A stretch of DNA of 64,000 nucleotides, from positions 950,379-1,014,378 of the forward strand of contig OZ251500.1 in assembly GCA_965242755.1 (NCBI GenBank). The letters run 5' to 3'. A program made the position numbers and the translations under genes. Each line of letters starts with the position of its first letter. Position 1 is the first letter of the stretch. Shown here piece after piece: positions 2-36,851 of the stretch. The notes beneath the pieces were generated by a model, which saw only the letters and a program-made list of their open reading frames with translations, did no database searches and was not told the origin of the DNA. This DNA comes from Dehalococcoidia bacterium. GTDB taxonomy: Bacteria; Chloroflexota; Dehalococcoidia; Lucifugimonadales; Australimonadaceae.

Positions 2-274
2 GTCGCGCTCTTCCTGCTGCTGGACGCCTACTACCTCGCGCTGGAGCGAGCGTTCCGCAAATCCTACGAGGCGTTCGTCGCCAAACTGCACTCCGGCGAT
101 CTGGCCGAAGCCGACTTGTACGTCGTGAAGCCCGTAGGCATGGGCATCATCCTCGTTGGGGCTTGCCTCAGATCGTTCTCCGTATGGCTGTTCTACGTCG
201 TTCTGGCCGTTACGATTGTCCTCGCATGGCTGCTCGTGCTACCATCGGATTCCATATTAGGGAGAGGAGGGTAG
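2..274 (+). CDS. 3' part of a membrane protein gene that starts upstream of the window
   Basis: Frame is open from the window edge to TAG at 272-274. Translation reads ..LLLDAYYLALERAFRKSYEAFVAKL.. followed by a hydrophobic run GIILVGACLRSFSVWLFYVVLAVTIVLAWLLVL. No family recognised. Confidence 0.6.
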   Translation, partial: VALFLLLDAYYLALERAFRKSYEAFVAKLHSGDLAEADLYVVKPVGMGIILVGACLRSFSVWLFYVVLAVTIVLAWLLVLPSDSILGRGG

Positions 275-6853: not shown

Positions 6854-9256
6854 ATGACCTACGCCGTCAGCAGCGGCGCGCCGAGCGCGGAAGCCCCCGC
6901 GCAAGCCCCGCCCCGCGAGAACCCCACCGCCACCACGATGCGCGTCCGCAAGCGCAACGGGAACCTCGAAACCGCCGACGTAATGAAGATCGTCCGCGCC
7001 GTCGAGCGCTCCGCCGACGGCCTCGGCGAAGTCGACCCCCTCCGCGTCGCCACGCGCACCATCTCCGGCCTCTACGACGGCGCCACCACCCGCGAACTCG
7101 ACGAACTCTCCATCCGCACCGCCGCGTCCCTCATCGCCGAGGAGCCCGAGTACTCCAAACTCGCCGCCCGCCTCCTCAGCGCCTACATCGACAAGGAAGT
7201 GGAGAACCAGGAGGTCCACGCCTTCTCCCAGTCCGTCAAGACGGGCCACGCGCTCGGCCTCATCGACGACGGCGTCGCCGAGTTCGTCGCCGCCAACTCC
7301 CGCAAACTCAACGACGCCATCGAGCCCGCCCGCAGCGCCCTCTTCGAGTACTTCGGCATCCGCACCCTCTACGACCGCTACCTCCTCAAGCACCCCGAGA
7401 CGCGGCGCTCCATCGAAACGCCCCAGCACTTCTTCCTCCGCATCGCCTGCGGCCTCGCCCAGAGCCCCGCCGACGCCATCGACCTCTACGCGCTCATGTC
7501 CAACCTGGACTACATGCCCAGTTCCCCCACCCTCTTCAACTCCGGCACGCGGCACTCCCAAATGTCCTCCTGCTACCTCCTCGACTCCCCACAGGACGAC
7601 CTCGAGGCGATCTACAACCGCTACACCGACATCGCCAAACTCTCCAAATTCGCCGGCGGCATCGGCGTCTCCTTCTCCCGCGTCCGCTCCAAGGGCTCCC
7701 TGATCAGGGGCACCAACGGCAAGTCCAACGGCATCGTCCCCTGGCTCAAGACGCTCGACTCCTCCGTCGCCGCCGTCAACCAGGGCGGCAAGCGCAAGGG
7801 CGCCGCCTGCGTCTACGTCGAAACGTGGCACGCCGACATCGAAGACTTCCTCGACCTCCGCGACAACACCGGCGACGACGCCCGACGCGCCCACAACCTC
7901 AACCTCGCCAACTGGGTCCCCGACCTCTTTATGCGCCGCGTCGAAGAGGACGGCCTATGGTCGCTCTTCGACCCCAAGCGAACCCCCGACCTGGTGGACG
8001 CCTACGGCGACGACTTCGAGCGCCGCTACATGGCCGCGGAGGCCGACCGCCTCTACGAGCGCCAAGTCCCCGCCCGCGAACTCTACGGCCGCATGATGCG
8101 AACGCTCGCCCAAACCGGCAACGGCTGGATGACCTTCAAAGACGCCTCCAACCGCAAGTCCAACCAGACGCTCCGCCCCGAAAACGTCATCCACCTCTCC
8201 AACCTCTGCACCGAAATCCTCGAAGTCACGAACAACGACGAAACCGCCGTCTGCAACCTCGGCTCCCTCAACCTCGGCCACTTCGTCACCGACGACGGCG
8301 CGTTCGACTTCGAGCGGCTCGGCTCCGCCGTCCAAATCGCCGTCCGCTACCTCGACCGCGTCGTCGACATCAACTACTACCCCACCGACGCCGCGGCGCG
8401 CTCCAACGCCAAATGGCGCCCCGTCGGACTCGGCGTGATGGGCCTCCAGGACGTCTTCTTCAAAATGCGCCTCCCCTTCGACAGCCCGGAAGCCGCCGCC
8501 CTCGCGGAGCGCATCCAGGAGGAGGTCTACTTCGGCGCCCTCGCGACCTCCAACGCGCTCGCCGAAGCCCACGGACCCCACGCCGCGTTCGCCGACACCC
8601 GCGCCGCCAACGGCGACCTCCAATTCGACTTCTGGGGCGTCGCCCCCGCGAAACCCGAGTGGCCCGACCTCAAGAAGCGCATCAAAAAGCACGGCCTACG
8701 CAACTCCCTCCTCGTCGCCATCGCCCCCACCGCCACCATCGCCTCCATCTGCGGCGCCTACGAGTGCATCGAGCCCCAAGTCTCCAACCTCTTCAAACGC
8801 GAGACGCTCTCCGGCGAGTTCCTCCAAATCAACCACTACCTCGTCCGCGACCTCAAAGCCCGCGGCCTCTGGACCGACGAGATCCGCAACAAGATCAAAA
8901 TCGAGGAGGGCTCCGTCCAGAACGTCCCGCAGATCCCGGCGGACGTCAAGGATCTCTACCGCACCGCGTGGGAACTCCCCCAGAAGGCGCTCATAGACAT
9001 GGCCGCTGCCCGCGGCCCCTACGTCGACCAGAGCCAGTCCCTCAACCTCTTCATGGCCGACCCCACCATCGGCAAACTCTCCTCGATGTACCTCTACGCC
9101 TGGAAGACCGGCCTCAAGACGACCTACTACCTGCGCTCCCGCCCCGCGACGCGCATCCGCCAAACCACGACCGCCGCCGCCGAAGAGGAACTCCCCGACG
9201 AGGAAGCCGTAGCCTGCTCCCTCGAAAACCCCGACGTCTGCGAAGCCTGCGAGTAG
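6854..9256 (+). CDS. nrdA: Class I ribonucleotide reductase alpha subunit with N-terminal ATP-cone
   Basis: SSPTLFNSGT, QMSSCYLL, GGIGVSFSRVR, NLCTEI and C-terminal CSLENPDVCEACE closely resemble eukaryote-like R1. Alternative start ATG 6938 (MRVRKRNG). No beta subunit gene in the window. Confidence 0.85.
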   Translation: MTYAVSSGAPSAEAPAQAPPRENPTATTMRVRKRNGNLETADVMKIVRAVERSADGLGEVDPLRVATRTISGLYDGATTRELDELSIRTAASLIAEEPEYSKLAARLLSAYIDKEVENQEVHAFSQSVKTGHALGLIDDGVAEFVAANSRKLNDAIEPARSALFEYFGIRTLYDRYLLKHPETRRSIETPQHFFLRIACGLAQSPADAIDLYALMSNLDYMPSSPTLFNSGTRHSQMSSCYLLDSPQDDLEAIYNRYTDIAKLSKFAGGIGVSFSRVRSKGSLIRGTNGKSNGIVPWLKTLDSSVAAVNQGGKRKGAACVYVETWHADIEDFLDLRDNTGDDARRAHNLNLANWVPDLFMRRVEEDGLWSLFDPKRTPDLVDAYGDDFERRYMAAEADRLYERQVPARELYGRMMRTLAQTGNGWMTFKDASNRKSNQTLRPENVIHLSNLCTEILEVTNNDETAVCNLGSLNLGHFVTDDGAFDFERLGSAVQIAVRYLDRVVDINYYPTDAAARSNAKWRPVGLGVMGLQDVFFKMRLPFDSPEAAALAERIQEEVYFGALATSNALAEAHGPHAAFADTRAANGDLQFDFWGVAPAKPEWPDLKKRIKKHGLRNSLLVAIAPTATIASICGAYECIEPQVSNLFKRETLSGEFLQINHYLVRDLKARGLWTDEIRNKIKIEEGSVQNVPQIPADVKDLYRTAWELPQKALIDMAAARGPYVDQSQSLNLFMADPTIGKLSSMYLYAWKTGLKTTYYLRSRPATRIRQTTTAAAEEELPDEEAVACSLENPDVCEACE

Positions 9257-9318
9257 GCGGCGGGCTGATACACTCAAGACCTACCGACAGCAGCAAGTAA
9301 CCCTTAGGAGGGTCAACA

Positions 9319-9693
9319 ATGATACATAACGCTCTCTACTGCCCGAATTGCCTCGTCCAGCAGCCTGGGACTTCCAGCGACCACGTGGTCAAAGAGTATG
9401 TCTGCTGCCGCAAGTGCTACAAATCCTTCCAGTGGGGAGATTACCTGACAGCTCCGTTCCCACAGGCAGATTCCTACGGGAAACTCATGGACGAAAGCAT
9501 CCAGCCCTTCATTGCCGCAGCCAAGATTCCCCCTGTGTGGAGCTGGAAGTACCTCACCACTGCGTGGTGGCTCTGGCGTACTTCCGAGCCGATGCGGGCG
9601 CGTGGCAAGACAATGACAGACGCAGAATTCAAGAGGTGGGTAGACCGAGCCATGAGGCAACCCGGCCGTCTTCCCTTCGATGAGGAGTTCTAG
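9319..9693 (+). CDS. Hypothetical zinc-ribbon-like protein
   Basis: CPNC..17..CCRKC cysteine pairs at the N-terminus. Trp-rich. Visibly lower GC than its neighbours. Stop lies 2 nt before the next ATG. Confidence 0.5.
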   Translation: MIHNALYCPNCLVQQPGTSSDHVVKEYVCCRKCYKSFQWGDYLTAPFPQADSYGKLMDESIQPFIAAAKIPPVWSWKYLTTAWWLWRTSEPMRARGKTMTDAEFKRWVDRAMRQPGRLPFDEEF

Positions 9694-9695
9694 CC

Positions 9696-10484
9696 ATGTC
9701 CTTACCGCTACCGGTGCAGAAGTTCGCTAAACGGCACGGATTCCGCCGTCCGGACGATGCCGTTCGCCATGTTGCGGACTCCCTCGTCGCCCGGTCCGGG
9801 CAATCGCAACCCCGCTTCGCGCTCCAGCCCTTGCTTGAACTCGCGCCCGTTTCCCTAGACCCCCTGATCCGCGTGCAAGACATGGCTTACGCGGGAAGCC
9901 TGACCAAAGACGGCGATCTCTACCGGATAGCGGTCAACGCCCAGCACAACAGGGGGCGGCAGCGCTTCTCGGTTGCCCACGAACTCGGTCACGCCTTCTT
10001 CATCCCCTTCTCCGACGAAAGCCGCTACCGTATTCCCGGGACGGCGCACGACAGCCGGATAGAAGAGCGCATGTGCAACATCTTCGCCGCCAACGTCCTG
10101 ATGCCCGAAGAGCGGTTCTCCCAAGACCTCGAAGAGAAGGGCGTCAACGCGGCGTCTGTCATTGACTTGGCGGGGGCTTACGAGGTGTCCGTAGAGACGG
10201 CAGCCCTAAGAGTAACCGAGGTGCGCCCCAAGACGGCGGTAGTGGGATTGCTATCCCCGCCTGACGACGATGGACGCTCTCACGAAGTGCATATCCTCGC
10301 TCCGCGCCTGCCCCGTAGCCGCCCGGTCGTGTTGAAATCTCTGCTAGGCAAACCTTTCCTCGCAGACGGGGAGCTTGGGTGCATCGCGGATATTTTCTGG
10401 TCAAACGGCGACAGGTCAAAGGACGTGCGATGCCGTCCGCTAGGAGGCCGGTGGCTATTCGCCGCGACCGTCCGTCCTGCCTGA
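9696..10484 (+). CDS. ImmA/IrrE-family (DUF955) zinc metallopeptidase
   Basis: SVAHELGHAFF (HExxH) followed by CNIFAANVLMPEE, typical of ImmA/IrrE. Confidence 0.75.
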   Translation: MSLPLPVQKFAKRHGFRRPDDAVRHVADSLVARSGQSQPRFALQPLLELAPVSLDPLIRVQDMAYAGSLTKDGDLYRIAVNAQHNRGRQRFSVAHELGHAFFIPFSDESRYRIPGTAHDSRIEERMCNIFAANVLMPEERFSQDLEEKGVNAASVIDLAGAYEVSVETAALRVTEVRPKTAVVGLLSPPDDDGRSHEVHILAPRLPRSRPVVLKSLLGKPFLADGELGCIADIFWSNGDRSKDVRCRPLGGRWLFAATVRPA

Positions 10485-10496
10485 GGAGTCCCACGC

Positions 10497-10727
10497 CCTG
10501 TCATTCCCGCGTAGGCGGGAATCCAGTCGGCGCGATAGCGCCACGACGGGGCGCAACGCGCCCCGTCCCCAAGCCATCCCGGAGCCCCGTCATTCCCGCG
10601 AAAGCGGGAACCTACTGGGGCTGCCGCCCTCCCCGCGCAAGCGCGAACCCCAACTGGCGCAAGCGCCGACCCCGCCCTCTCCCGCTGGGCGGGAGAGGGC
10701 AGCCGCGAAGCGGCGGGTGAGGGTTGC
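10497..10727. repeat. Mosaic repeat cluster (modules B, A, E)
   Basis: gtcattcccgcgtaggcgggaatccagtcggcgcg, ccccgtcattcccgcgaaagcgggaacctactgggg, ccctctcccgctgggcgggagagggcagccgcgaagcggcgggtgagggttg. Confidence 0.9.
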
Positions 10728-11344
10728 CGCAAAATCGGACAACCGCCCCTTGCGCGCTCGCGCATGCCTCGTATACCCTGCCCCTCCGATCAGCGCAGAC
10801 GACGGAGAAACGCTTGGAAGACGCCTACGGCGAGGGCTACCAACGCGCGCGGACAGAAGCGCTCGCCCGCAACCCCACCTGCCAATTCTGCGGACGCTTC
10901 CCCGCGACCGACGCCCACCACTGGGCGTTCCATAAGTATCCGCCCGACGCGGAGATCGGCCCCGACGACCTGACGGCCCTGTGCCGTCACTGCCACGAAA
11001 TAGCCACCACGGTGCGCCGCCACTACCGCGACAGAGGCGGCAAACCCCACCAGATACCCCAAGCGTTGGAGGAGGCCCTACGGCAATGCGATACCAAGTC
11101 ACCATCAGGGGCGTTAGCCCCCTCATCACGCACAACGGAGCGGCCGGACTCGACACCCGCTCCCCTGCCAACGTCGAGAAGGCGGAAATCGCCCGCAAGA
11201 AAGGCTCCAACCGAACCGCAACCGACGACGAGCGCATCAAGGAACTCGAATGCCAAACCTCGCTTTGGCTCGACGCGCGCGACGCGGCTACGATCCCGGA
11301 AGGCGCGATCCGAGCCTGCATCGAAACCGGAGCGCGAAAGTTGA
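10724..11344 (+). CDS. Small HNH-motif protein; both ends uncertain
   Basis: CQFCGRFPATDAHHWAF..LTALCRHCHEIA is an HNH-like Cys/His pattern. The TTG start lies inside a repeat. The last ~85 codons overlap the next gene out of frame and look non-coding. Confidence 0.45.
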   Translation: MPQNRTTAPCALAHASYTLPLRSAQTTEKRLEDAYGEGYQRARTEALARNPTCQFCGRFPATDAHHWAFHKYPPDAEIGPDDLTALCRHCHEIATTVRRHYRDRGGKPHQIPQALEEALRQCDTKSPSGALAPSSRTTERPDSTPAPLPTSRRRKSPARKAPTEPQPTTSASRNSNAKPRFGSTRATRLRSRKARSEPASKPERES

Positions 11345-11682
11345 AGCAGGGGCCCCAAGTCCGCGAGGGCTTGGTGGTCGAAGGCGTCCAATCGTTCGAC
11401 TACGACCGCGAGGAGCTCGGCTCGACGGTCGAAGAGTTGGGCAAGCGCGCCCAGTTCACGGTGGGCGTCGTCGTCCAGCGCAACCGCGTCCTGCGGACGC
11501 GCGCCAAGTTCGACGAGTGGTCGTGCGCGTTCACCCTCGACTGCGACGACGAACTCGTCGACAAAGACCAGTTGGAGGCGTGGCTCGACATCGCCGGACG
11601 CAGAATCGGCCTCGGCGACTGGAGGCCGGAGAAGTCCGGCACCTACGGAAGGTTCGAAGCCGAAGTGCAGCCTCTCGGTTAG
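11086..11682 (+). CDS. Uncharacterised 198-aa protein with a RAMP-like glycine-rich C-terminus
   Basis: GGAGGAGG RBS. MRYQVTIRGVSPLITHNG.., ..ATIPEGAIRACIETGAR.., C-terminal GRRIGLGDWRPEKSGTYGRFE. No family assigned with confidence. Confidence 0.7.
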   Translation: MRYQVTIRGVSPLITHNGAAGLDTRSPANVEKAEIARKKGSNRTATDDERIKELECQTSLWLDARDAATIPEGAIRACIETGARKLKQGPQVREGLVVEGVQSFDYDREELGSTVEELGKRAQFTVGVVVQRNRVLRTRAKFDEWSCAFTLDCDDELVDKDQLEAWLDIAGRRIGLGDWRPEKSGTYGRFEAEVQPLG

Positions 11683-11991
11683 GTTCAGGGCCTGGCGTGG
11701 CTAGGCAAGGCTTGGTAGGGCTTGGCGCGGCTCGGTTGGGCCTGGCAAGGCTAGGCATGGCCCGGCACGGCGAGGCAGGGTTTTATCGTGGCAGGGCCCG
11801 GCATGGCACGGCGCGGTACGGCATGGCACGGCCCGGTATGGCATGGCAGAGCGAGGCATGGCAAGGCGAGGCATGGTTCGGCCCGGCGGGGCTCGGCTAG
11901 GCAGTGCGTGGTATGGCGTGGCGAGGCATGGTTCGGCCCGGCGGGGCTGGGTAAGGTATGGCAGGGCTTGGCGTGGCGAGGCAGGGAACTC

Positions 11992-12020
11992 TTGACGAGG
12001 CCAGGCAGACAACGACATAG
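11992..12020 (+). promoter_or_regulatory. Promoter-like spacer 1 in the array (TTGACG-17-ACATAG)
   Basis: Conserved spacer aggcagggaactcTTGACG..gcagacaacgACATAGgtcgcggcgcggc. The pentamer block resumes 6 nt after the -10-like hexamer. Confidence 0.35.
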
Positions 12021-12106
12021 GTCGCGGCGCGGCGGGGCATGGCTCGGCGCGGCATGGCTGGGTGCGGCGTGGCTAGGCTAGGCTCGGCAAGGCGAGGCAG
12101 GGAACT

Positions 12107-12135
12107 TTGACGCGGTTATGCAGACAACGATACAA
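12107..12135 (+). promoter_or_regulatory. Promoter-like spacer 2 in the array (TTGACG-17-ATACAA)
   Basis: aggcagggaacttTTGACGcggttatgcagacaacgATACAAgtcagggcgcggc. Same geometry as spacer 1. Confidence 0.35.
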
Positions 12136-12242
12136 GTCAGGGCGCGGCGCGGCAGGGTATGGCGTGGCATGGCATGGCTAGGCCCGGCATGGTTGGGCAA
12201 GGCAAGGCAGGGAACTTTTATGACAAAGAAGGCAGACGCGAC

Positions 12243-12271
12243 ATGACGCGGTTGGCGGAGCAACGATATAA
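12243..12271 (+). promoter_or_regulatory. Promoter-like spacer 3 in the array (ATGACG-17-ATATAA)
   Basis: Spacer 3 carries a ~25-nt insertion but keeps (A/T)TGACG-17-ATATAA followed by the next pentamer block. Confidence 0.35.
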
Positions 12272-12356
12272 ATCGAGGCGCGGCAGGGCATGGCCCGGTG
12301 CGGCACGGCATGGCAAGGCAGGGCGGTGCATGGCATGGCATGGCGCGGCCTGGATA

Positions 12357-12384
12357 GGCCCTCCCCAGGCAACTGGGGAGGGCC
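12357..12384 (+). other. 10-bp GC stem-loop closing the array (GGCCCTCCCC-aggcaact-GGGGAGGGCC)
   Basis: Perfect inverted repeat 12357-12366 / 12375-12384. No T-tract follows, so it is not a canonical intrinsic terminator. Confidence 0.6.
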
Positions 12385-12465
12385 GCTCTACCCAGCGGAC
12401 GCTCCGCGGTTCGATGGCTTGCCCGCCCCTTGCGCGAGGGGCTAGGCTCGCGGACGCGCGTCGCA

Positions 12466-12679
12466 GTCCGTCGGCGGAGCGCCGATGAACGCGCCAAGAG
12501 ACGGGGCGCAACGCGCCCCGTCCCCAAGCCATCCCGGGGCCCCGTCATTCCCGCGAAAGCGGGAACCTACTGGGGCGCCACGCCCTGCCCGCGAAAGCGC
12601 GAACCCACCCGGCGCGCAAGCGCCGCCCCCGCCCTCTCCTTCTGGGAGAGGGCAGCCGCGTAGCGGCGGGTGAGGGTCG
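12466..12679. repeat. Mosaic repeat cluster (modules B-tail, A, E)
   Basis: ..acggggcgcaacgcgccccgtccccaagccatcccgg.., ccccgtcattcccgcgaaagcgggaacctactgggg, ccctctccttctgggagagggcagccgcgtagcggcgggtgagggt. Confidence 0.9.
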
Positions 12680-12806
12680 CCCCATGTCGCAACTGCGACA
12701 CATGCCCCTTGCGCGCCCCCAACCACGCCCCTACGATGGACCCATCACGCCCCAAATCCCAACGAGGGCGCGCAACCGACGCGAACGGAGAGGAACGCAA
12801 GGCCAA

Positions 12807-12895
12807 TGTCTCAAATTGTCTCAAATTGTCTCAAAATGTCTCATTTTGTCTCATTCCTGTCTCAAAACGTCTCATTAGCGTCTCAAACCGTCTCG
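12807..12895 (+). repeat. Iteron-like array: 9 copies of GTCTCA (last copy GTCTCG) at 10-11 bp spacing
   Basis: Copies start at 12808, 12818, 12828, 12838, 12848, 12859, 12869, 12880 and 12890. The first three units are TGTCTCAAAT. AT-rich relative to the surroundings. Confidence 0.9.
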
Positions 12896-12943
12896 CGCCG
12901 AAACGCCCAAAAACTAGGCCAACACGGAAAAAGGAGGCCGCCA

Positions 12944-13381
12944 ATGACCCAAAATGAGACATACCCCGGGGTCGACGACGACCGCGCCGCCCTCGCCCGC
13001 GGCGAGGCGCGCGAACTCACCGACCGCCAACTCCTCGCACTCCCCTTCATCGCCGCATCCTCCACCCAAACCGAAGCCGCCGAAGCCGCCGAGATCAGCC
13101 GCGCCACCCTCGCACGCTGGCGCCAAAACCCCAGATTCAAAGACGAACTCCGCCGCATCCGCGAAGACGCCGCCAAACTCGCCCACGCCGAACTCGACGG
13201 CCTCGCCCTCAAAAGCGTCTCCGCCCTCGCCAACCTCATGGACGACCCCAACCCCCGCGTCAGAGCCCAAGCCATCCGAACAGCCCTCGACATATCCCTC
13301 AAAGTCCAAGAGCAAACCCGCATCCGCCGCAACCTCCGCCAACTCGAAAACGCCTTCAACCACCTCAAAAACCAAAAGTAG
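12944..13381 (+). CDS. Phage/plasmid-like HTH protein
   Basis: AAGGAGG RBS. TQTEAAEAAEISRATLARWRQNPRF is an HTH-like segment. Lies 49 nt downstream of the iteron array. Confidence 0.6.
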   Translation: MTQNETYPGVDDDRAALARGEARELTDRQLLALPFIAASSTQTEAAEAAEISRATLARWRQNPRFKDELRRIREDAAKLAHAELDGLALKSVSALANLMDDPNPRVRAQAIRTALDISLKVQEQTRIRRNLRQLENAFNHLKNQK

Positions 13382-13416
13382 CCCCAGCAAGGAGCCCAAC
13401 CACACGGACCGCCCCG

Positions 13417-13655
13417 CCCGCGCAAACGCGAATCCAGCCGGCGCGAAAGCACCGACCCCGCCCTCTCCCTCTGGAGACCTTTGCATAACCTACCGTCATT
13501 CCCGCGTAGGCGGGAATCCAGGCGGCGCGCAGCGCCGCTCCTCTCCCACGTAAGCGCCCCGTCATTCCCGCGAAAGCGGGAACCTACTGGGGCAGAGGAG
13601 TTATGCAAAGGCCTCCTCTGGGAGAGGGCAGCCGCGAAGCGGCGGGTGAGGGTTG
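13417..13655. repeat. Mosaic repeat cluster (modules E, D, B, A, D-inverted, E)
   Basis: ccctctccctctggagacctttgcataacctaccgtcattcccgcgtaggcgggaatcc ... ccccgtcattcccgcgaaagcgggaacctactgggg ... gagttatgcaaaggcctcctctgggagagggcagccgcgaagcggcgggtgagggttg. Confidence 0.9.
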
Positions 13656-13712
13656 AGCCCTTCTCTCAATGCCCAGTAGCTAATTGCCGACAGATTACCC
13701 TGCGCGTAAGTA

Positions 13713-13742
13713 TTGACATATCAGCCAGCGGTAGTGTATTCA
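13713..13742 (+). promoter_or_regulatory. Sigma-70-like promoter (TTGACA-18-TATTCA)
   Basis: Hexamers at 13713-13718 and 13737-13742, in an AT-richer patch about 20 nt upstream of AGGAGG/ATG 13764. Confidence 0.45.
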
Positions 13743-13763
13743 TTACATAACCAGGAGGCGTAT

Positions 13764-14042
13764 ATGCCAAGAGAGCCGAGGCCCATGCAGTCCGTGATTG
13801 ACCAGATTGACGCGGCGGTCAAGGAACTCCGCCGAGGGACGACGAAAAAGAAGGGGGCAAGCCCCGAGGTCTTGCGGAAGCAACTGCTCAGAGTCCAGTC
13901 CGCAGCCGCAGCCGGAATACGGACGGTGGACGCGGATGACAACCGCAAGAGCCAACTGAATCCGAACAACGACGCCTTCTGGCAAGCGCGCGGGTTCCCC
14001 AAGCGCCCCGACGACTGGAAGGCCAGGATCACCGTGAAATAG
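13764..14042 (+). CDS. Small protein with a C-terminal DNRKSQLNPNNDAFWQARGFPKRPDDWKARI motif
   Basis: AGGAGG RBS. 92 aa. Shares a ~32-aa C-terminal motif with the next gene. Confidence 0.6.
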   Translation: MPREPRPMQSVIDQIDAAVKELRRGTTKKKGASPEVLRKQLLRVQSAAAAGIRTVDADDNRKSQLNPNNDAFWQARGFPKRPDDWKARITVK

Positions 14043-14058
14043 ACCAAGGAGACCGACG

Positions 14059-14250
14059 ATGCCGCTGATCATCCACCCGCTCCCTGAGGCGCTAGGGCCC
14101 AGCAACGACGCCAAGCGCGACCGCGACAACCGCAAGAACCAACTGAATCCGAACAACGACGCCTACTGGCGAGCGCAAGGGTTCCCCAAGCGCCCCAACG
14201 ACTGGAAGGCCAGAATCGCCGCCGAGAAGCAGCGGCGAACTTCGAGGTAG
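14059..14250 (+). CDS. Small protein with the DNRKNQLNPNNDAYWRAQGFPKRPNDWKARI motif (tandem paralog)
   Basis: AAGGAG RBS. 63 aa. Motif is nearly identical to that of 13764-14042. Confidence 0.6.
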   Translation: MPLIIHPLPEALGPSNDAKRDRDNRKNQLNPNNDAYWRAQGFPKRPNDWKARIAAEKQRRTSR

Positions 14251-14299
14251 CCAAACCGCTCGGCCCCTCCATCCGCATCGTTGCGGCGCCCCTATGCCG

Positions 14300-14470
14300 G
14301 CCTGCCCGCGTAGGCGGGAATCCAGTCGGCGCGCAAGCGCCACGAGACGGGCGCCCCGTCCCCGGCTGGGTTTTGCGCCTCCGCGGGTGAGGGTTGCCCA
14401 GCAGGTTCCCGCTTGCGCGGTCAGGGCGTGGCCCCGGGGATGGCTTGGCGCGCGCAAGCGCCGATTGATG
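14300..14470. repeat. Mosaic repeat cluster
   Basis: cccgcgtaggcgggaatccagtcggcgcgcaagcgccacgagacggg.., gggtgagggttgcc, ggttcccgcttgcgcgg. Confidence 0.8.
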
Positions 14471-14513
14471 GCGGAGCCCCTTGCGGTAGCGTAAGAAATT
14501 GAGGAGTCAGGAG

Positions 14514-15032
14514 ATGTCGACCACGGCGAAACCCTTCGCGCCTCCGTTCGACGAGGGGCTGGACCTCGACCCGCCGCGAGAGACGCATGCGACGCATAGC
14601 AGGCGGCTGCGCGCCCGATCCGCCCGCTCGCTGAAAGACGGCGAACGAGTCGCAGGCTCCGAAGAGACATGGGGCGCGGCGGTGCATGCGGTCAAGGCGA
14701 TTGCCCGCAAACGCGGATGGCCGCATCACGAGCATCGCGCCTACGGCGTCATCGCCAACCGCATCGGCGCCCTCGCAGAGAACGAGCGCATCGGGGAACT
14801 GTTCGCCGCCATCGAGAGCCTCCACCGCAACTTCTCCGACGACGAGTCGGAATCGGAACTACGGATCGGGCAGGAGCGTCTGGCACGGCTGCTCGCGTTC
14901 CTCAAAGAGGCGGACAAAACCATCCCGCCGAACGCCGAGCCGCCGACCGACCCCGACTACCGCAAGCGCGCCGCCGCCTACCTGCGGAAGCATTACCGCC
15001 GCGCCCCAGCCGCATCCGCCCGCAAGCGGTAG
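14514..15032 (+). CDS. PaREP1/HEPN-like helical protein, paralog 2
   Basis: GERVAGSEETWGAAVHAVKAIARKRGWPHHEH (R-x5-H) and SLHRNFSDD. GAGGAG RBS. Confidence 0.6.
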   Translation: MSTTAKPFAPPFDEGLDLDPPRETHATHSRRLRARSARSLKDGERVAGSEETWGAAVHAVKAIARKRGWPHHEHRAYGVIANRIGALAENERIGELFAAIESLHRNFSDDESESELRIGQERLARLLAFLKEADKTIPPNAEPPTDPDYRKRAAAYLRKHYRRAPAASARKR

Positions 15033-15039
15033 CCCCCGG

Positions 15040-15258
15040 TCCCGTCATTCCCGCGCAGCCGCGAACCCAGCCGGCGCGATAGCGCCACGACGGGGCGTCC
15101 CGCGCCCCGTCCCCAAGCCATCCCCCGGCTACCTCGCCCTGACCGCGAAAGCGGGAACCTATTGGGCCTTGCCGCCCTCCCTCGAAGCGACGAACCCAGT
15201 GGCGCGAAAGCGCCAACCCCCCTCTCCTTCTGGAGACCTTTGCATAACCCACCCGCCC
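15040..15258. repeat. Mosaic repeat cluster
   Basis: gtcattcccgcgcagccgcgaacccagccggcgcgatagcgccacgacgggg.., ccgcgaaagcgggaacctattggg, cctctccttctggagacctttgcataaccc. Confidence 0.85.
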
Positions 15259-15260
15259 CT

Positions 15261-15402
15261 GCTCGCGTTCCTCAAAGAGGCGGACAAAGCCGTTCCGCCG
15301 AACGCCGAGCCGCCGACCGACCCCGACTATCGCAAGCGCGCCGCCGCCTACCTGCGGAAGCATTACCGTCGCGCCCCAGCCGCGTCCGCCCGCGAGCGGT
15401 AG
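15261..15402 (+). pseudogene. Duplicated 3' fragment of the PaREP1-like gene (last 46 codons and stop)
   Basis: 142 nt align with 14891-15032 at 7 mismatches. Encodes LLAFLKEADKAVPPNAEPPTDPDYRKRAAAYLRKHYRRAPAASARER-stop with no 5' part. Confidence 0.85.
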
Positions 15403-15454
15403 CCCTCCCCTGCCGCCAGCCGCTCGGACCCCGGCCTTGCCGAGACCTCGCCCG

Positions 15455-15645
15455 CCCTGCCCGCATAGGCGGGAATGACGCGGCGCTTGGGGTAGAAGAG
15501 GGGCAGCGCCTTACGCGGCGGGGGGGTTCGCGGCTACGCGGGGAGGGCGTGGCCTGGCGCCTACGCGGGCAGGGCGGCGCGGCATGGCAAGGCGGCGTTG
15601 ATTGGTTCCCTCGCCTTACCAGGGAGAGGGTTAGGGTGAATGTGG
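15455..15645. repeat. Mosaic repeat cluster
   Basis: cccgcataggcgggaatgacgcgg, several ctacgcggg units, cagggagagggttagggtga. Confidence 0.75.
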
Positions 15646-15695
15646 TTCCGCGCCTCGTTGGCGACCCGCAGGCAGCCCGCCCCCAACCCCGCGCC

Positions 15696-15704
15696 TGCTA
15701 GAAT
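15696..15704 (+). promoter_or_regulatory. Extended -10-like element TGcTAGAAT, 6 nt upstream of the lepA GTG
   Basis: TG at 15696-15697, TAGAAT at 15699-15704, GTG at 15711. No Shine-Dalgarno sequence can fit between them. Confidence 0.4.
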
Positions 15705-33515: not shown

Positions 33516-35234
<1,719 letters not shown>

Positions 35235-36851
35235 TCATAGCAGGCCGAACTGCGCCCGCGGCTGTTGGATTTGGGCCGGCGCGCGCGGAGCGCGGCGGAA
35301 GGTTGGGGGACGCGATAGCCCCAGCCGCGGGATGGCGGGAAGGCTCCCGCTCAGCAAGTCCTCCACCGCCGAAATCTGCACGCGCGGAAACCGCTGATCA
35401 GGAAAGTGCCGCGGCTCGTAGAACCCCGCCGACGCCGCCTCCTGCTCCATCGCCCGCGTCGGACGCTCCAGCGTGATGAACACGGCGAGTTCCGCCCCCT
35501 CGCGCTGCCGATCGCTGTTAAGCGCCGCGATCTGGCTGCGCTGCACGTGCCCGCTTTTCACCTGCACGATGATGCGCTTCGGCTTGCCGGAATCGTCGTC
35601 GAAAAAGTTGACGTAGCCGTCCACGCCCGCGTCGGCACCTCTGCGCCGGTCATGCGCCGGACGCGCGTCTATGAGTCCGAGCGCCCAATACTCGAACTGA
35701 TAGCGCCCGTCAGGCTCGCTCTCTTCCGCGAGGGCGCGGGCGCCGGCGAGGTCTTCGGGAACGCCGACCACGTCGTAAGGGGAGAGGCGCTCGCCGAAGG
35801 CGTCGTGGAGGCGGTATTTCATCAGGGAGACGGCGAGGTGGGTGACGTCGATACCGATCCATCGTCGGTTGAGGCGCTCGGCGACGGCGATGGCGGTTCC
35901 GCATCCGCAGAACGGGTCGAGCACGACGTCGCCTTCGTTGCTGGACGCGGCGATGATGCGCTCGAGCAGCGCCTCCGGCTTCTGCGTGGGGTAGCCGAGC
36001 CGCTCATTTCCGATATGCATCGCATCGGGAATATCGAACCACGTGTCCCCGACTAACGCATCGTCAACGACGTTGCCGTCGGGGCGCTCCTCCAAGAAGT
36101 ACTTGATGCGAACGGCGCCGGTGCGGGTGCGGTAAATCCGCCCTTCCGCATCGAGCCTCCGAACCGACTCGTCCGTATAGTTGCCTCTGGGAGCGGTTTT
36201 GAACCATCGGCCTTGCTCGTCTTGCCGCAAACCGATTCGCCTAGCCTCGTCGGGAGCGTAGGCGCGCTTGGCGTACTGCCTCTCGAAGCGATGGCCTTTC
36301 GCGCTCTTTGAGTAGAAGAGCAACACGTCGTGGTTCCTGGGGAATTGCGCCGCGACGGCCTTGCCACCGCGCCCTCCGTAATGCCAAACCAACTCGTTGC
36401 GGAACCCCTCCTTGCCGAACACGGCGTCCATCAGCAGCCTGAGGTGATGGCTGGCGGTGGGATCGCAATGGAGGTAGATGCTGCCGCTCGGCTTGAGGAC
36501 GCGATGCAACTCCACGACGCGACTGGCCATCATCACGAGGTAGGCCATCATATCGTTGCGCCCGAGGAATCCGCGCATCGCCGCGAGCAGGTCGGCGACG
36601 CTGCGCGGGCCGGAGGTAACGACGTCTTGGTAGGCGGCCTCCGCCTCGATGCTCCAATGCCACGTGTCGTCGAACGCCTTGATCTGCGCCGACGACAGTT
36701 CGCCGCCCGCCTCGCGGAAGAGCACGTTGTAGGTCGCGTTCGAGTTGAACGGCGGGTCGAGGTAGATGAGGTCGACGCTCTCGTCCGCGACATGCTCGCG
36801 CAGGATCGGCAGGTTGTCCCCGAAGAAGAGTTTGTTGCGCCAGTCGGCCAT
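35235..36851 (-). CDS. Beta-class DNA methyltransferase fused to an Mrr-like domain, paralog B
   Basis: The first ~145 aa and last ~250 aa nearly match paralog A. The central ~140 aa is unrelated. Confidence 0.85.
   Translation of the reverse strand: MADWRNKLFFGDNLPILREHVADESVDLIYLDPPFNSNATYNVLFREAGGELSSAQIKAFDDTWHWSIEAEAAYQDVVTSGPRSVADLLAAMRGFLGRNDMMAYLVMMASRVVELHRVLKPSGSIYLHCDPTASHHLRLLMDAVFGKEGFRNELVWHYGGRGGKAVAAQFPRNHDVLLFYSKSAKGHRFERQYAKRAYAPDEARRIGLRQDEQGRWFKTAPRGNYTDESVRRLDAEGRIYRTRTGAVRIKYFLEERPDGNVVDDALVGDTWFDIPDAMHIGNERLGYPTQKPEALLERIIAASSNEGDVVLDPFCGCGTAIAVAERLNRRWIGIDVTHLAVSLMKYRLHDAFGERLSPYDVVGVPEDLAGARALAEESEPDGRYQFEYWALGLIDARPAHDRRRGADAGVDGYVNFFDDDSGKPKRIIVQVKSGHVQRSQIAALNSDRQREGAELAVFITLERPTRAMEQEAASAGFYEPRHFPDQRFPRVQISAVEDLLSGSLPAIPRLGLSRPPTFRRAPRAPAQIQQPRAQFGLL

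What the first reader, a model, noticed from the sequence alone, without database searches (positions are those of the whole stretch)
11694..12359. 102-unit degenerate pentanucleotide (NNGGC) array in five phase-perfect blocks
Counted directly: GGC (occasionally GGT, AGC, TGC or GGA) recurs exactly every 5 nt. The blocks hold 17, 39, 15, 14 and 17 units, at 11694-11776, 11790-11982, 12026-12098, 12141-12208 and 12277-12359. No block contains an insertion or deletion, while the other two positions vary freely. The array is strand-asymmetric (G-rich on plus). It starts 12 nt after the stop of the 11086-11682 gene and ends in a perfect 10-bp GC stem-loop. A period of 5 is incompatible with codon structure, and several overlapping reading frames on both strands stay open across parts of it. 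It is unrelated to the mosaic hairpin repeats elsewhere in the window and has no CRISPR-like repeat/spacer architecture. Keeping phase while the sequence drifts suggests the periodicity itself is selected. Possible roles: (a) an RNA or DNA lattice for an oligomeric or ring-shaped binding protein, by analogy with TRAP, which reads (G/U)AG triplets about 5 nt apart; (b) G2-tract quadruplex-forming DNA/RNA; (c) a replication- or packaging-related satellite of a mobile element.
Basis: seen in the sequence. Interest (0 to 1): 0.88.

Follow-up and report, generated by a model that had tools for sequence, protein, structure and literature searches.

The report
VIPR guide-RNA array beside its gene
The five-base repeat is real and is the guide-RNA array of a VIPR system, a CRISPR-like RNA-guided DNA-recognition system first described in 2026 preprints, so it is a new example of a very recently described kind rather than an unknown element.

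Summary
Window 11689-12359 holds five blocks of (GGY-NN)n with a period of exactly 5 and no indels, and nothing like it occurs elsewhere in the window.

The flanking gene 11086-11682 is a Vipr protein. Its family profile hits PDB 36pp "SUSP1 Vipr protein" at E=5e-60. Its AlphaFold model matches Cas7/Csm3 RAMPs, and the GGY-contacting residues are conserved.

Two 2026 bioRxiv preprints define VIPR as Vipr plus vrRNAs of GGY/NN repeats. In those systems the NN dinucleotides read double-stranded DNA with a one-base skip.

In 64 of 81 loci that encode a homolog (the window plus 80 from MAGs of at least six phyla), the same kind of array lies just downstream on the same strand. An HNH gene lies directly upstream in 60 of the 80 fetched loci.

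Between contigs with identical Vipr proteins, GGY positions differ at 0.6% and NN positions at 7.8%, close to the synonymous rate of vipr. Whole vrRNAs are also gained or lost. The 39-unit block is two vrRNAs fused.

No convincing target was found for the window's guides. In Rhodobacterales relatives the guides match the neighbouring porin genes under the one-base-skip rule.

Verdict: new member of a known kind.

The parts
10724..11344 (+). HNH-domain ORF, the candidate Vipr-accessory protein (vap). The HNH motifs lie in about 10860-11030. The frame stays open 258 nt into vipr.
   Evidence: PHROG HNH endonuclease families at E=2e-9 and 1.6e-8; Pfam HNH is weak at E=0.005. A homolog lies directly upstream of vipr in 60 of 80 related loci. 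The frame stays open 225-258 nt past the vipr ATG in all 8 loci inspected. Cassette homology with other contigs begins at 10738.
11086..11682 (+). vipr gene: a 198-aa minimal RAMP protein (RRM core, thumb, glycine-rich loop).
   Evidence: The profile hits PDB 36pp 'SUSP1 Vipr protein' at E=5e-60; the single sequence gives 3.2e-14. It matches phrog_4652 at 2e-32. The AF2 model has pLDDT 86, and the top Foldseek PDB hits are Cas7/Csm3. H16, R139, D178, W179 and R180 align with SUSP1 H17, R138, D177, W178 and R179. There are only synonymous differences against L092-L094.
11689..11789 (+). vrRNA 1: 18 GGY-NN units, then a GGT cap and the tail TTTATCGT.
   Evidence: A homologous vrRNA with 4 changed NN units occurs in L092 and L094. 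It is absent from L001.
11790..11991 (+). vrRNA 2: 39 units, a fusion of two vrRNAs (2a about 11790-11869, 2b about 11870-11982), followed by the cap and tail AGGGAACTC.
   Evidence: It shares 13 of 16 NN units with L001 vr1 and 15 of 20 with L001 vr2. The two are separate, each with its own tail, in L001 and L093, and are fused in the window and in L092. TRF finds a 55-nt internal duplication at 11840-11983.
11983..12025 (+). Inter-vrRNA spacer: the tail AGGGAAC-T(n)-TTGACG and a conserved RTCGN just before the next tract.
   Evidence: The motifs are conserved in window, L092, L093 and L001 spacers. There is no consistent -10 spacing and no sigma-70 consensus hit. The fold is not significant. 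Rfam gives no hit, including hammerhead families.
12026..12107 (+). vrRNA 3: 15 units plus the cap and tail AGGGAACTT.
   Evidence: It is not present in L001, L092 or L093.
12141..12217 (+). vrRNA 4: 14 units plus the cap and tail AGGGAACTT.
   Evidence: A near-identical vrRNA with one NN change occurs in L093.
12277..12359 (+). vrRNA 5: 16-17 units. It lacks the AGGGAAC cap and runs into the terminal hairpin.
   Evidence: Related vrRNAs occur in L092 and L093, where they are followed by the same hairpin or an equivalent one.
12357..12384 (+). Perfect 12-bp GC stem with a GCAA loop at the end of the array; a probable transcript end or stabiliser on the + strand.
   Evidence: Sequence and fold. 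GC hairpins also follow the last block in L001, L005, L043, L058 and L092. No U-tract follows it, so it is not a canonical intrinsic terminator.

Best explanation
Window 10724-12384 is a compact VIPR (Viral Interference Programmable Repeat) cassette. It consists of an HNH accessory gene, the vipr gene, and a downstream array of five vrRNA units.

The + strand is transcribed. Vipr protomers polymerise on each RNA with one protomer per pentamer. They hold the invariant G-G-Y bases and present the variable NN dinucleotides. The concatenated NN pairs recognise double-stranded DNA with one target base skipped between pairs (target xNNxNN...). The result is repression of the bound DNA or, with the HNH partner, possibly cleavage of it.

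Shown here:
- the repeat anatomy;
- homology of the protein to SUSP1 Vipr and its RAMP fold;
- conservation of the RNA-contacting residues;
- linkage of gene and array in 64 of 81 loci;
- purifying selection on GGY with near-neutral drift of NN;
- modular gain and loss of whole vrRNAs.

Taken from the preprints, and not tested on this locus: filament assembly, the one-base-skip code, and silencing.

Inferred only: transcription and processing here, the HNH role, and the natural targets, which I could not identify.
For: Protein. A profile of the family hits PDB 36pp_D 'SUSP1 Vipr protein' at E=5e-60 and the single sequence gives 3.2e-14. The AF2 model (pLDDT 86.4) matches type VII Cas7, Csm3, Cas7-11 and Cas6 RAMPs. 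SUSP1 residues H17, R138, D177, W178 and R179, which the preprint reports as GGY contacts, align with window H16, R139, D178, W179 and R180. R139, D178, W179 and R180 are invariant in alignment A1.

RNA. There are 102 GGY-NN units. Over 1915 units from 141 distinct blocks, positions 1-2 are 95-97% G, position 3 is 98.6% pyrimidine, and positions 4-5 carry 1.86 and 1.97 bits of entropy. Block sizes peak at 13-17 units. Blocks are capped by RRGGR in 82 of 141 cases against a 1.3% background.

Linkage. 64 of 81 loci carry an array within 1.5 kb downstream on the same strand, with a median gap of 17 nt. Blocks number 146 on the + strand and 3 on the - strand.

Selection. Between contigs with 100% identical Vipr, mismatches are 2/348 at GGY and 18/232 at NN positions. 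The vipr gene has 14-19 synonymous and 0 non-synonymous differences.

Code. In Rhodobacterales relatives only the one-base-skip model gives outlier hits, and these fall in frame within adjacent porin genes.

Definition of VIPR.
Against: - No transcript or protein-binding data exist for this locus.
- No target reaching 80% NN match with convincing statistics was found for any window guide in the window, 80 related loci, IMG/VR seed scans or one metagenome scan.
- The 3' tail is a short cap rather than the roughly 40-nt pseudoknotted tail of the SUSP1 clade, and no significant structure is predicted.
- One unit of 39 repeats lies outside the reported 9-16 range and appears to have lost an internal tail, so part of the array may be defective.
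- The context is a small chromosomal island, not a recognisable prophage.
- The VIPR type could not be assigned because the preprint's supplement is not held.
Confidence: 0.9

Rival explanations
1. It is a VIPR-derived cassette that has been domesticated. Here it serves as a programmable regulator of host chromosomal genes rather than as an anti-phage or anti-MGE weapon, or it is decaying and has no current target.
For: The cassette sits in ordinary chromosomal contexts. It lies after ribonucleotide reductase in the window and between nitrile hydratase and a dehydrogenase in L092. In Rhodobacterales relatives the guides match the neighbouring Porin_4 genes of their own or sister loci. No viral target was found for the window guides. 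vr2 is a fusion that has lost a tail.
Against: The window guides have no match above 63% NN anywhere in the 64-kb window. The vipr gene is under strong purifying selection, with 0 non-synonymous changes. Guide content turns over between strains as expected for an arms race. The preprint reports that HNH- or nuclease-linked types target viruses.
Confidence: 0.12
2. It is a DNA-level element: G2-tract quadruplex or R-loop-forming DNA, or a packaging or replication site of a mobile element that acts without the RNA-guide mechanism.
For: There is strong G/C strand asymmetry. The array lies near a terminase-small-like gene with its own GTCTCA repeats.
Against: A pyrimidine is required at position 3, which quadruplex formation does not need. 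The array always lies on the coding strand of vipr and directly after it. The TerS-like gene is absent from all 80 related loci. The GGY bases are the ones contacted by conserved Vipr residues.
Confidence: 0.03
3. It is a neutral microsatellite-like expansion or an assembly artefact.
For: The tract is of low complexity, and unit counts vary between relatives.
Against: The same architecture is assembled independently in dozens of MAGs and metagenome contigs from different projects. GGY is conserved at 99.4% while NN drifts at 7.8%. The phase never slips inside a block. Blocks carry a specific cap motif.
Confidence: 0.01
4. It is protein-coding repeat sequence (five-residue periodic G-x-A-[RWG]-x peptides), or an attenuator lattice read by a TRAP-like ring protein.
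For: ORFs of 50-109 aa stay open across the blocks. The GGY spacing resembles the triplet spacing of TRAP binding sites.
Against: A period of 5 gives the same peptide pattern in all three frames, and unit counts are not multiples of 3. Frames stay open by construction. No frame is conserved between relatives with differing unit numbers. No TRAP/MtrB homolog is present and the array does not lie in a leader. The array follows its gene rather than preceding a regulated operon.
Confidence: 0.01

Closest known systems
VIPR type II systems of Escherichia phage SUSP1 and a Pseudomonas fulva prophage (bioRxiv 10.64898/2026.04.26.720920 and 10.64898/2026.04.26.720927)
   Same: A homologous Vipr protein (about 28% identity, with conserved GGY-contact residues). 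vrRNAs built of GGY/NN pentamers. An array of several vrRNAs downstream of vipr. Hypervariable NN positions. No self-target in the window.
   Different: The accessory gene here is an HNH protein upstream of vipr and overlapping it, not the downstream DNA-binding vap1. The tail is a short RRGGRA(AC) cap rather than a roughly 40-nt pseudoknot. The G-loop carries a 4-residue insertion (EKSG). Blocks reach 17-24 units, plus one 39-unit fusion. The context is chromosomal in high-GC uncultured bacteria.
Nuclease-associated VIPR types (III-V) of the same preprint; by elimination from its Fig. S21 legend, type III is the one with an HNH Vap
   Same: A predicted nuclease accessory gene, a location in a cellular chromosome rather than a phage, and a defence-type neighbour (a CapP-like M78 peptidase).
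   Different: Type membership could not be tested. The classification rests on a Vipr phylogeny and supplementary data that are not held. Viral targets were not found for this locus.
Class 1 CRISPR-Cas backbone (Cas7/Csm3 filament on crRNA)
   Same: A RAMP fold with a thumb and G-loop. One protomer binds per fixed-length RNA segment, with periodic base flipping. The predicted fold matches Cas7/Csm3.
   Different: There is no repeat-spacer array, no cas1/cas2 and no other cas genes. The periodicity is written into the RNA sequence itself (GGY every 5 nt). The guide is non-contiguous.
   Same: A protein oligomer reads a short G-containing motif that recurs about every 5 nt in an otherwise variable, unstructured RNA.
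   Different: TRAP is a closed 11-mer ring that reads (G/U)AG in a 5' leader to control attenuation. Here an open helical filament of a RAMP protein reads GGY, and the variable bases are the functional payload.

Membership tests
VIPR system | A Vipr protein (minimal RAMP with RRM core, thumb and glycine-rich loop) encoded next to the repeats | tested here: met
   The profile hits PDB 36pp 'SUSP1 Vipr protein' at E=5e-60 and the single sequence gives 3.2e-14 over residues 5-195. The AF2 model has pLDDT 86, with Foldseek top hits to Cas7/Csm3/Cas6.
VIPR system | Residues that hold G1, G2 and Y3 (SUSP1 H17, R138, D177, W178, R179) are conserved | tested here: met
   Window H16, R139, D178, W179 and R180 align with them. 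R139, D178, W179 and R180 are invariant across 32 sequences that include phage homologs.
VIPR system | vrRNA tract of tandem YNNGG (GGY/NN) pentamers, with GGY conserved and NN hypervariable (at least 4 units; 9-16 reported for type II) | tested here: met
   Five blocks of 14-18 units plus one of 39. Family-wide entropies are 0.36, 0.26 and 0.74 bits at GGY against 1.86 and 1.97 bits at NN. Mismatches are 0.6% at GGY and 7.8% at NN between contigs with identical Vipr. The 39-unit block exceeds the reported range and is a fusion.
VIPR system | An invariable 3' tail follows each repeat tract (structured, with a pseudoknot, in the SUSP1 clade) | tested here: inconclusive
   A conserved cap RRGGR follows 82 of 141 blocks against a 1.3% background, usually AGGGAAC or GAGGAAC. 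It is short, and no significant fold was predicted. vr5 and the internal junction of vr2 lack it.
VIPR system | An associated vap accessory gene with a DNA-related function | tested here: met
   An HNH ORF lies directly upstream of vipr and overlaps its start in 60 of 80 related loci. That it equals one of the preprint's vap1-6 is an inference.
VIPR system | vrRNAs are expressed as discrete RNAs of about 100 nt and co-purify with Vipr | not testable with these tools
   No transcript data are available. Indirect support only: the array is always on the vipr strand, GC hairpins follow the last block, and the tracts are not predicted to fold.
VIPR system | Natural targets match the NN string under the one-base-skip rule (gapless, at least 80% NN) | tested here: inconclusive
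   Window guides give only seed-driven hits of 57-82% in IMG/VR and one metagenome hit of 24/30, all compatible with chance. In Rhodobacterales relatives, hits of 20/22 and 22/26 exceed all shuffles and fall in frame within porin genes under skip 1 only.
VIPR system | No self-targeting of the source contig | tested here: met
   The best NN match of any window guide within the 64-kb window is 63% or less. This does not hold for the relatives L071 and L017.
VIPR system | Viral or proviral context (about 71% of reported systems) | tested here: not met
   The island 9300-15700 lies between ribonucleotide reductase and LepA. It has phage-like genes (HNH, a TerS-like gene) but no structural genes. 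The same cassette sits among metabolic genes in L092. The preprint reports 25.5% of systems as chromosomal, so this does not exclude membership.
CRISPR array | Near-identical direct repeats of 23-50 nt that alternate with unique spacers, with cas1/cas2 and effector genes nearby | tested here: not met
   No such repeat family was found. The only conserved elements are GGY triplets and short caps. There are no cas genes apart from the RAMP-like vipr.
TRAP-binding attenuator | About 11 (G/U)AG triplets with 2-3 nt spacers in a 5' leader, plus an mtrB-type protein | tested here: not met
   The motif is GGY, blocks hold 14-39 units, and the array lies 3' of its gene. The neighbouring protein is a RAMP, not a TRAP.
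Type III toxin-antitoxin (ToxIN-like) RNA array | Near-identical tandem repeats of 34-36 nt upstream of an endoribonuclease toxin that processes them | tested here: not met
   The blocks differ completely in their NN content, their lengths vary from 70 to 195 nt, and they lie downstream of the gene.

The most novel reading that the evidence does not exclude
This clade is a distinct VIPR variant that is resident in chromosomes and partnered with an HNH protein. It has a short GGA-type cap instead of a structured tail, and it is exchanged as a cassette of about 1.7 kb among bacteria of at least six phyla that share a habitat. In some hosts (Rhodobacterales) it is aimed at the host's own neighbouring porin gene. 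That would make it a programmable regulator of a surface receptor, contrary to the 'no self-targeting' reported so far.
Probability: 0.3. Interest if true: 0.65.

Novelty: new member of a known kind. Interest (0 to 1): 0.4.

Why it matters
VIPR was described only in 2026 preprints, as an RNA-guided DNA-recognition system with a non-contiguous code and as a proposed ancestor of CRISPR RAMPs.

This locus shows that the tell-tale GGY-NN array can be recognised from raw sequence alone. It also gives an independent population-genetic signature of the published mechanism: GGY is frozen, NN drifts at about the synonymous rate, and whole guides are swapped between strains that carry identical Vipr proteins.

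The locus extends the system to uncultured high-GC bacteria of many phyla. There a minimal HNH-vipr-array cassette sits in ordinary chromosomal neighbourhoods.

Guides in Rhodobacterales relatives appear to match adjacent porin genes. This side observation would be worth testing, because it would mean that VIPR can be turned on host genes.

Tried and rejected
1. Rfam at E<=1 over 9000-15000 gave no family, including hammerhead.

2. The sigma-70 and terminator consensus scan found no promoter and nothing relevant. My by-eye reading of the long spacers as internal promoters (TTGACG ... TATAAA) was dropped. TTGAC is conserved directly after the tail, but the distance to any -10-like hexamer and to the next tract is not consistent across the window, L092, L093 and L001.

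3. A literature search for 'pentanucleotide repeat / phage / GGC' returned nothing useful. The lead came instead from the PDB sequence search.

4. Pfam, NCBIfam and PADLOC have no model for the Vipr protein.

5. RNA folds of the tracts and spacers are not better than shuffles, except for the terminal hairpin.

6. Target hunting with exact xNN seeds used six IMG/VR scans and one metagenome scan.
- Hits were 0 to 9 per scan. Extension beyond the seed was at chance level, and multiple hits came from single gene families.
- Two weak leads were not pursued. The 3' half of vr2b matches the antisense of a conserved hsdS motif (10 of 11 units) in L086 and L087. vr3 matches 24/30 in an ArpU-like gene beside the terminase genes of a 40%-GC phage contig, L091.

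7. The packaging-site idea (HNH plus TerS neighbourhood) was rejected because the TerS-like gene is not conserved with the cassette.

8. Phage homologs (Gordonia Trine gp41, mycobacteriophage LittleE gp34, Felixounavirus wV8 gp95) were fetched, but their flanks were not scanned for arrays.

Full report
OBSERVATION

The region was read directly and laid out in rows of five. Five blocks of GGY-NN units lie at the stated coordinates, and no block contains an insertion or deletion.
- The trinucleotide is GGC 85 times, GGT 13, TGC 2, AGC 1 and GGA 1.
- The GGC autocorrelation is 66, 59, 55, 55, 53 and 48 at lags 5 to 30 in steps of 5, and 0-3 at all other lags.
- No other run of five or more such units exists on the + strand of the 64-kb window.
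- Block 1 starts one unit earlier than reported, at 11689.
- The terminal hairpin has 12 perfect pairs, at 12357-12384.

CONTEXT

Upstream on the same strand lie three genes:
- an M78/ImmA-type peptidase (9696-10484), which is CapP-like in PADLOC at 1.2e-24;
- an HNH-domain ORF (from 10724), which matches PHROG HNH families at 2e-9;
- the 198-aa gene 11086-11682, which matches only phrog_4652 of unknown function at 2e-32.

Downstream lie REP-like mosaics, a run of GTCTCA decamers (12807-12894), and a 145-aa HTH protein that resembles small terminase subunits.

The island is bounded by ribonucleotide reductase and LepA and contains no phage structural genes.

WHAT IT IS

A genome-collection scan with the 11086-11682 protein returned 80 loci. 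They come from MAGs labelled Dehalococcoidia, Caldilineaceae, SAR202, Alphaproteobacteria, Gammaproteobacteria, Binatia, Thermodesulfobacteriota, Vicinamibacterales and Acidimicrobiia.

In 64 of 81 loci (window included), a period-5 GGY array lies within 1.5 kb downstream on the same strand, with a median gap of 17 nt. Blocks number 146 on the + strand against 3 on the - strand. This rules out a neutral microsatellite.

An HMM of the protein family then hit a single solved structure, PDB 36pp 'SUSP1 Vipr protein', at E=5e-60. The single sequence gives 3.2e-14.

Two bioRxiv preprints from 2026 describe VIPR systems as follows:
- Vipr is a minimal RAMP protein.
- vrRNAs consist of 9-16 GGY/NN pentamers followed by a 3' tail.
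- One Vipr protomer binds each repeat. It sequesters GGY and presents NN.
- The NN string recognises double-stranded DNA with one skipped base per pair.
- The natural targets are competing phages and satellites.
- Seven types are distinguished, with accessory vap genes that bind DNA or are nucleases or helicases.

MEMBERSHIP TESTS

Fold. The AlphaFold model (pLDDT 86.4) finds Cas7, Csm3, Cas7-11 and Cas6 as its best PDB matches. That fold library predates the Vipr structure, so this is independent support for a RAMP fold.

Contact residues. The SUSP1 residues reported to hold G1, G2 and Y3 (H17, R138, D177, W178, R179) align with window H16, R139, D178, W179 and R180. The last four are invariant across 32 homologs, including phage proteins.

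Repeat statistics. Across 1915 units from 141 distinct blocks, positions 1-2 are 95-97% G and position 3 is 98.6% pyrimidine. Positions 4 and 5 carry 1.86 and 1.97 bits. The GGY figures are partly circular, because GGY defined the blocks. The NN entropies are not.

Block size and cap. Block sizes peak at 13-17 units. Blocks are followed by a purine-capped unit, RRGGR (typically AGGGAAC or GAGGAAC), in 82 of 141 cases against a 1.3% background. This conserved 3' element is much shorter than the pseudoknotted SUSP1 tail, and no significant fold is predicted.

Accessory gene. The HNH gene is the conserved partner. It lies directly upstream in 60 of 80 loci, whereas the M78 and TerS-like genes occur in none. 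The preprint's text and its Fig. S21 legend imply that an HNH Vap belongs to its type III. I could not test type membership.

POPULATION EVIDENCE

The identical Vipr protein occurs on three other metagenome contigs. Nucleotide homology with the window runs from 10738 to about 12344 and then breaks. In L092 the cassette sits between nitrile hydratase genes and a dehydrogenase.

Homologous vrRNAs differ at 2 of 348 GGY positions and at 18 of 232 NN positions. The vipr gene carries 14-19 synonymous and no non-synonymous differences. GGY is therefore under strong constraint, and NN changes at roughly the synonymous rate.

Whole vrRNAs are present or absent between these contigs and L001, whose Vipr is 97% identical. 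The window's 39-unit block equals two vrRNAs that are separate, each with its own tail, in L001 and L093. They are fused in the window and in L092, through a duplicated GGCGA-GGCAT-GGTTC-GGCCC-GGCGG segment.

TARGETS

Under the one-base-skip rule, no window guide matches the window above 63% NN. None matches the 80 related loci at or above the 72% reporting threshold.

Exact-seed scans of IMG/VR (six) and of the metagenome collection (one) gave only hits compatible with chance.

As a check that the code applies in this clade, all 119 distinct guides of 11-24 units were scanned against the 2-Mb local set with shuffled controls. Only two guides exceeded every shuffle:
- L018 against L026, at 20/22;
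- L071 against its own locus, at 22/26 and at two sites.

Both fall in Porin_4 genes. Most of the five Rhodobacterales guides have their best or near-best skip-1 hits in the adjacent porin genes, and the weaker three of these hits score no better than shuffled guides. In every porin hit NN lies on codon positions 1-2 and the skipped base on the wobble position. Skip-0 and skip-2 models give scattered noise.

MECHANISM, WITH STATUS OF EACH STEP

Shown here: the anatomy, the homology, the conserved contact residues, the linkage, the selection pattern and the modular turnover.

Taken from the preprints: filament assembly, the gapped code and silencing.

Inferred: transcription of the + strand from the vipr operon, unit maturation at the cap and RTCGN boundaries, and cleavage or nicking of the target by the HNH partner.

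An internal-promoter reading of the long spacers was considered and dropped.

VERDICT

The finding is a genuine VIPR vrRNA array with its vipr and HNH genes. It is a new member of a kind described in 2026. The quadruplex and packaging ideas are not supported.

Noticed in passing
L071:1329-1396 -> L071:2836-2873(+) and 138-175(-); L018:6601-6658 -> L026:9270-9301(+); L017 guides -> L017:2215-2300, L026:9252-9289: In Rhodobacterales relatives, the vrRNA NN strings match the neighbouring Porin_4 genes under the one-base-skip rule (22/26 over the RBS and start codon, 20/22 internally, always in codon phase). These are apparent self or near-self targets, unlike what the preprint reports.
   Followed up: partly
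window 10724-11344 versus 11086-11682 (also L001, L002, L003, L012, L039, L058, L068): The HNH reading frame has no stop at the vipr start. It stays open 225-258 nt into vipr in all eight loci inspected. It was not tested whether this is a real 86-codon overlap or simply a stop-free alternative frame in GC-rich DNA.
   Followed up: partly
window 10738-12344 versus L092:2653-4417 and L093:2652-4273: The HNH-vipr-array cassette is 90-96% identical between contigs whose flanks differ (ribonucleotide reductase side versus nitrile hydratase and dehydrogenase). It is bordered on both sides by the REP-like mosaic repeats (window 10500-10730, 12488-12680, 13409-13630), which may mediate its movement.
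   Followed up: partly
window 12807-12894: Eight or nine direct repeats of GTCTCA at 10-11 nt spacing lie immediately upstream of the 145-aa HTH, terminase-small-like gene 12944-13381. They look like operator or binding sites for that protein.
   Followed up: no
window 9319-10484: An M78 peptidase that is CapP-like in PADLOC (1.2e-24) is preceded by a 124-aa cysteine-rich ORF. The pair resembles CapH/CapP-type defence regulators, directly upstream of the VIPR cassette. It is not conserved in the related loci.
   Followed up: partly
window 33516-35153 and 35235-36851 (- strand): Two tandem paralogous genes each fuse an N6/N4 DNA methylase domain to an Mrr-like restriction endonuclease domain.
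   Followed up: no
window 13713-14042 and 14059-14250; L001:4648-5182: Two adjacent small proteins share a motif (NRK(S/N)QLNPNNDA(F/Y)W(Q/R)A(R/Q)GFPKRP(D/N)DWKARI). They lie downstream of the array in the window but upstream of the HNH gene in L001.
   Followed up: no
L086:4607-4638(-), L087:1777-1808(+); L091:3242-3286(+): The 3' half of window vr2b matches 10 of 11 units of the antisense of a conserved hsdS motif (STKLxFQPGDIIFGKRR) in two IMG/VR contigs. vr3 matches 24/30 in an ArpU-like gene next to terminase genes on a 40%-GC phage contig. Both are compatible with chance.
   Followed up: partly
L026:6001-8383: The vipr homolog is truncated at the G-loop (it ends ...GLGD). It is followed by a transposase-like ORF on the opposite strand, and no array is present. 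This looks like a VIPR locus inactivated by an insertion.
   Followed up: no
L004:5535-5697, L008:5484-5697, L042:5619-5711, L043:5633-5705, L039:5520-5651(-), L060:5491-5583(-): Some relatives carry GGY-NN blocks upstream of the HNH-vipr pair, occasionally on the opposite strand. This recalls the upstream vrRNA of SUSP1.
   Followed up: no
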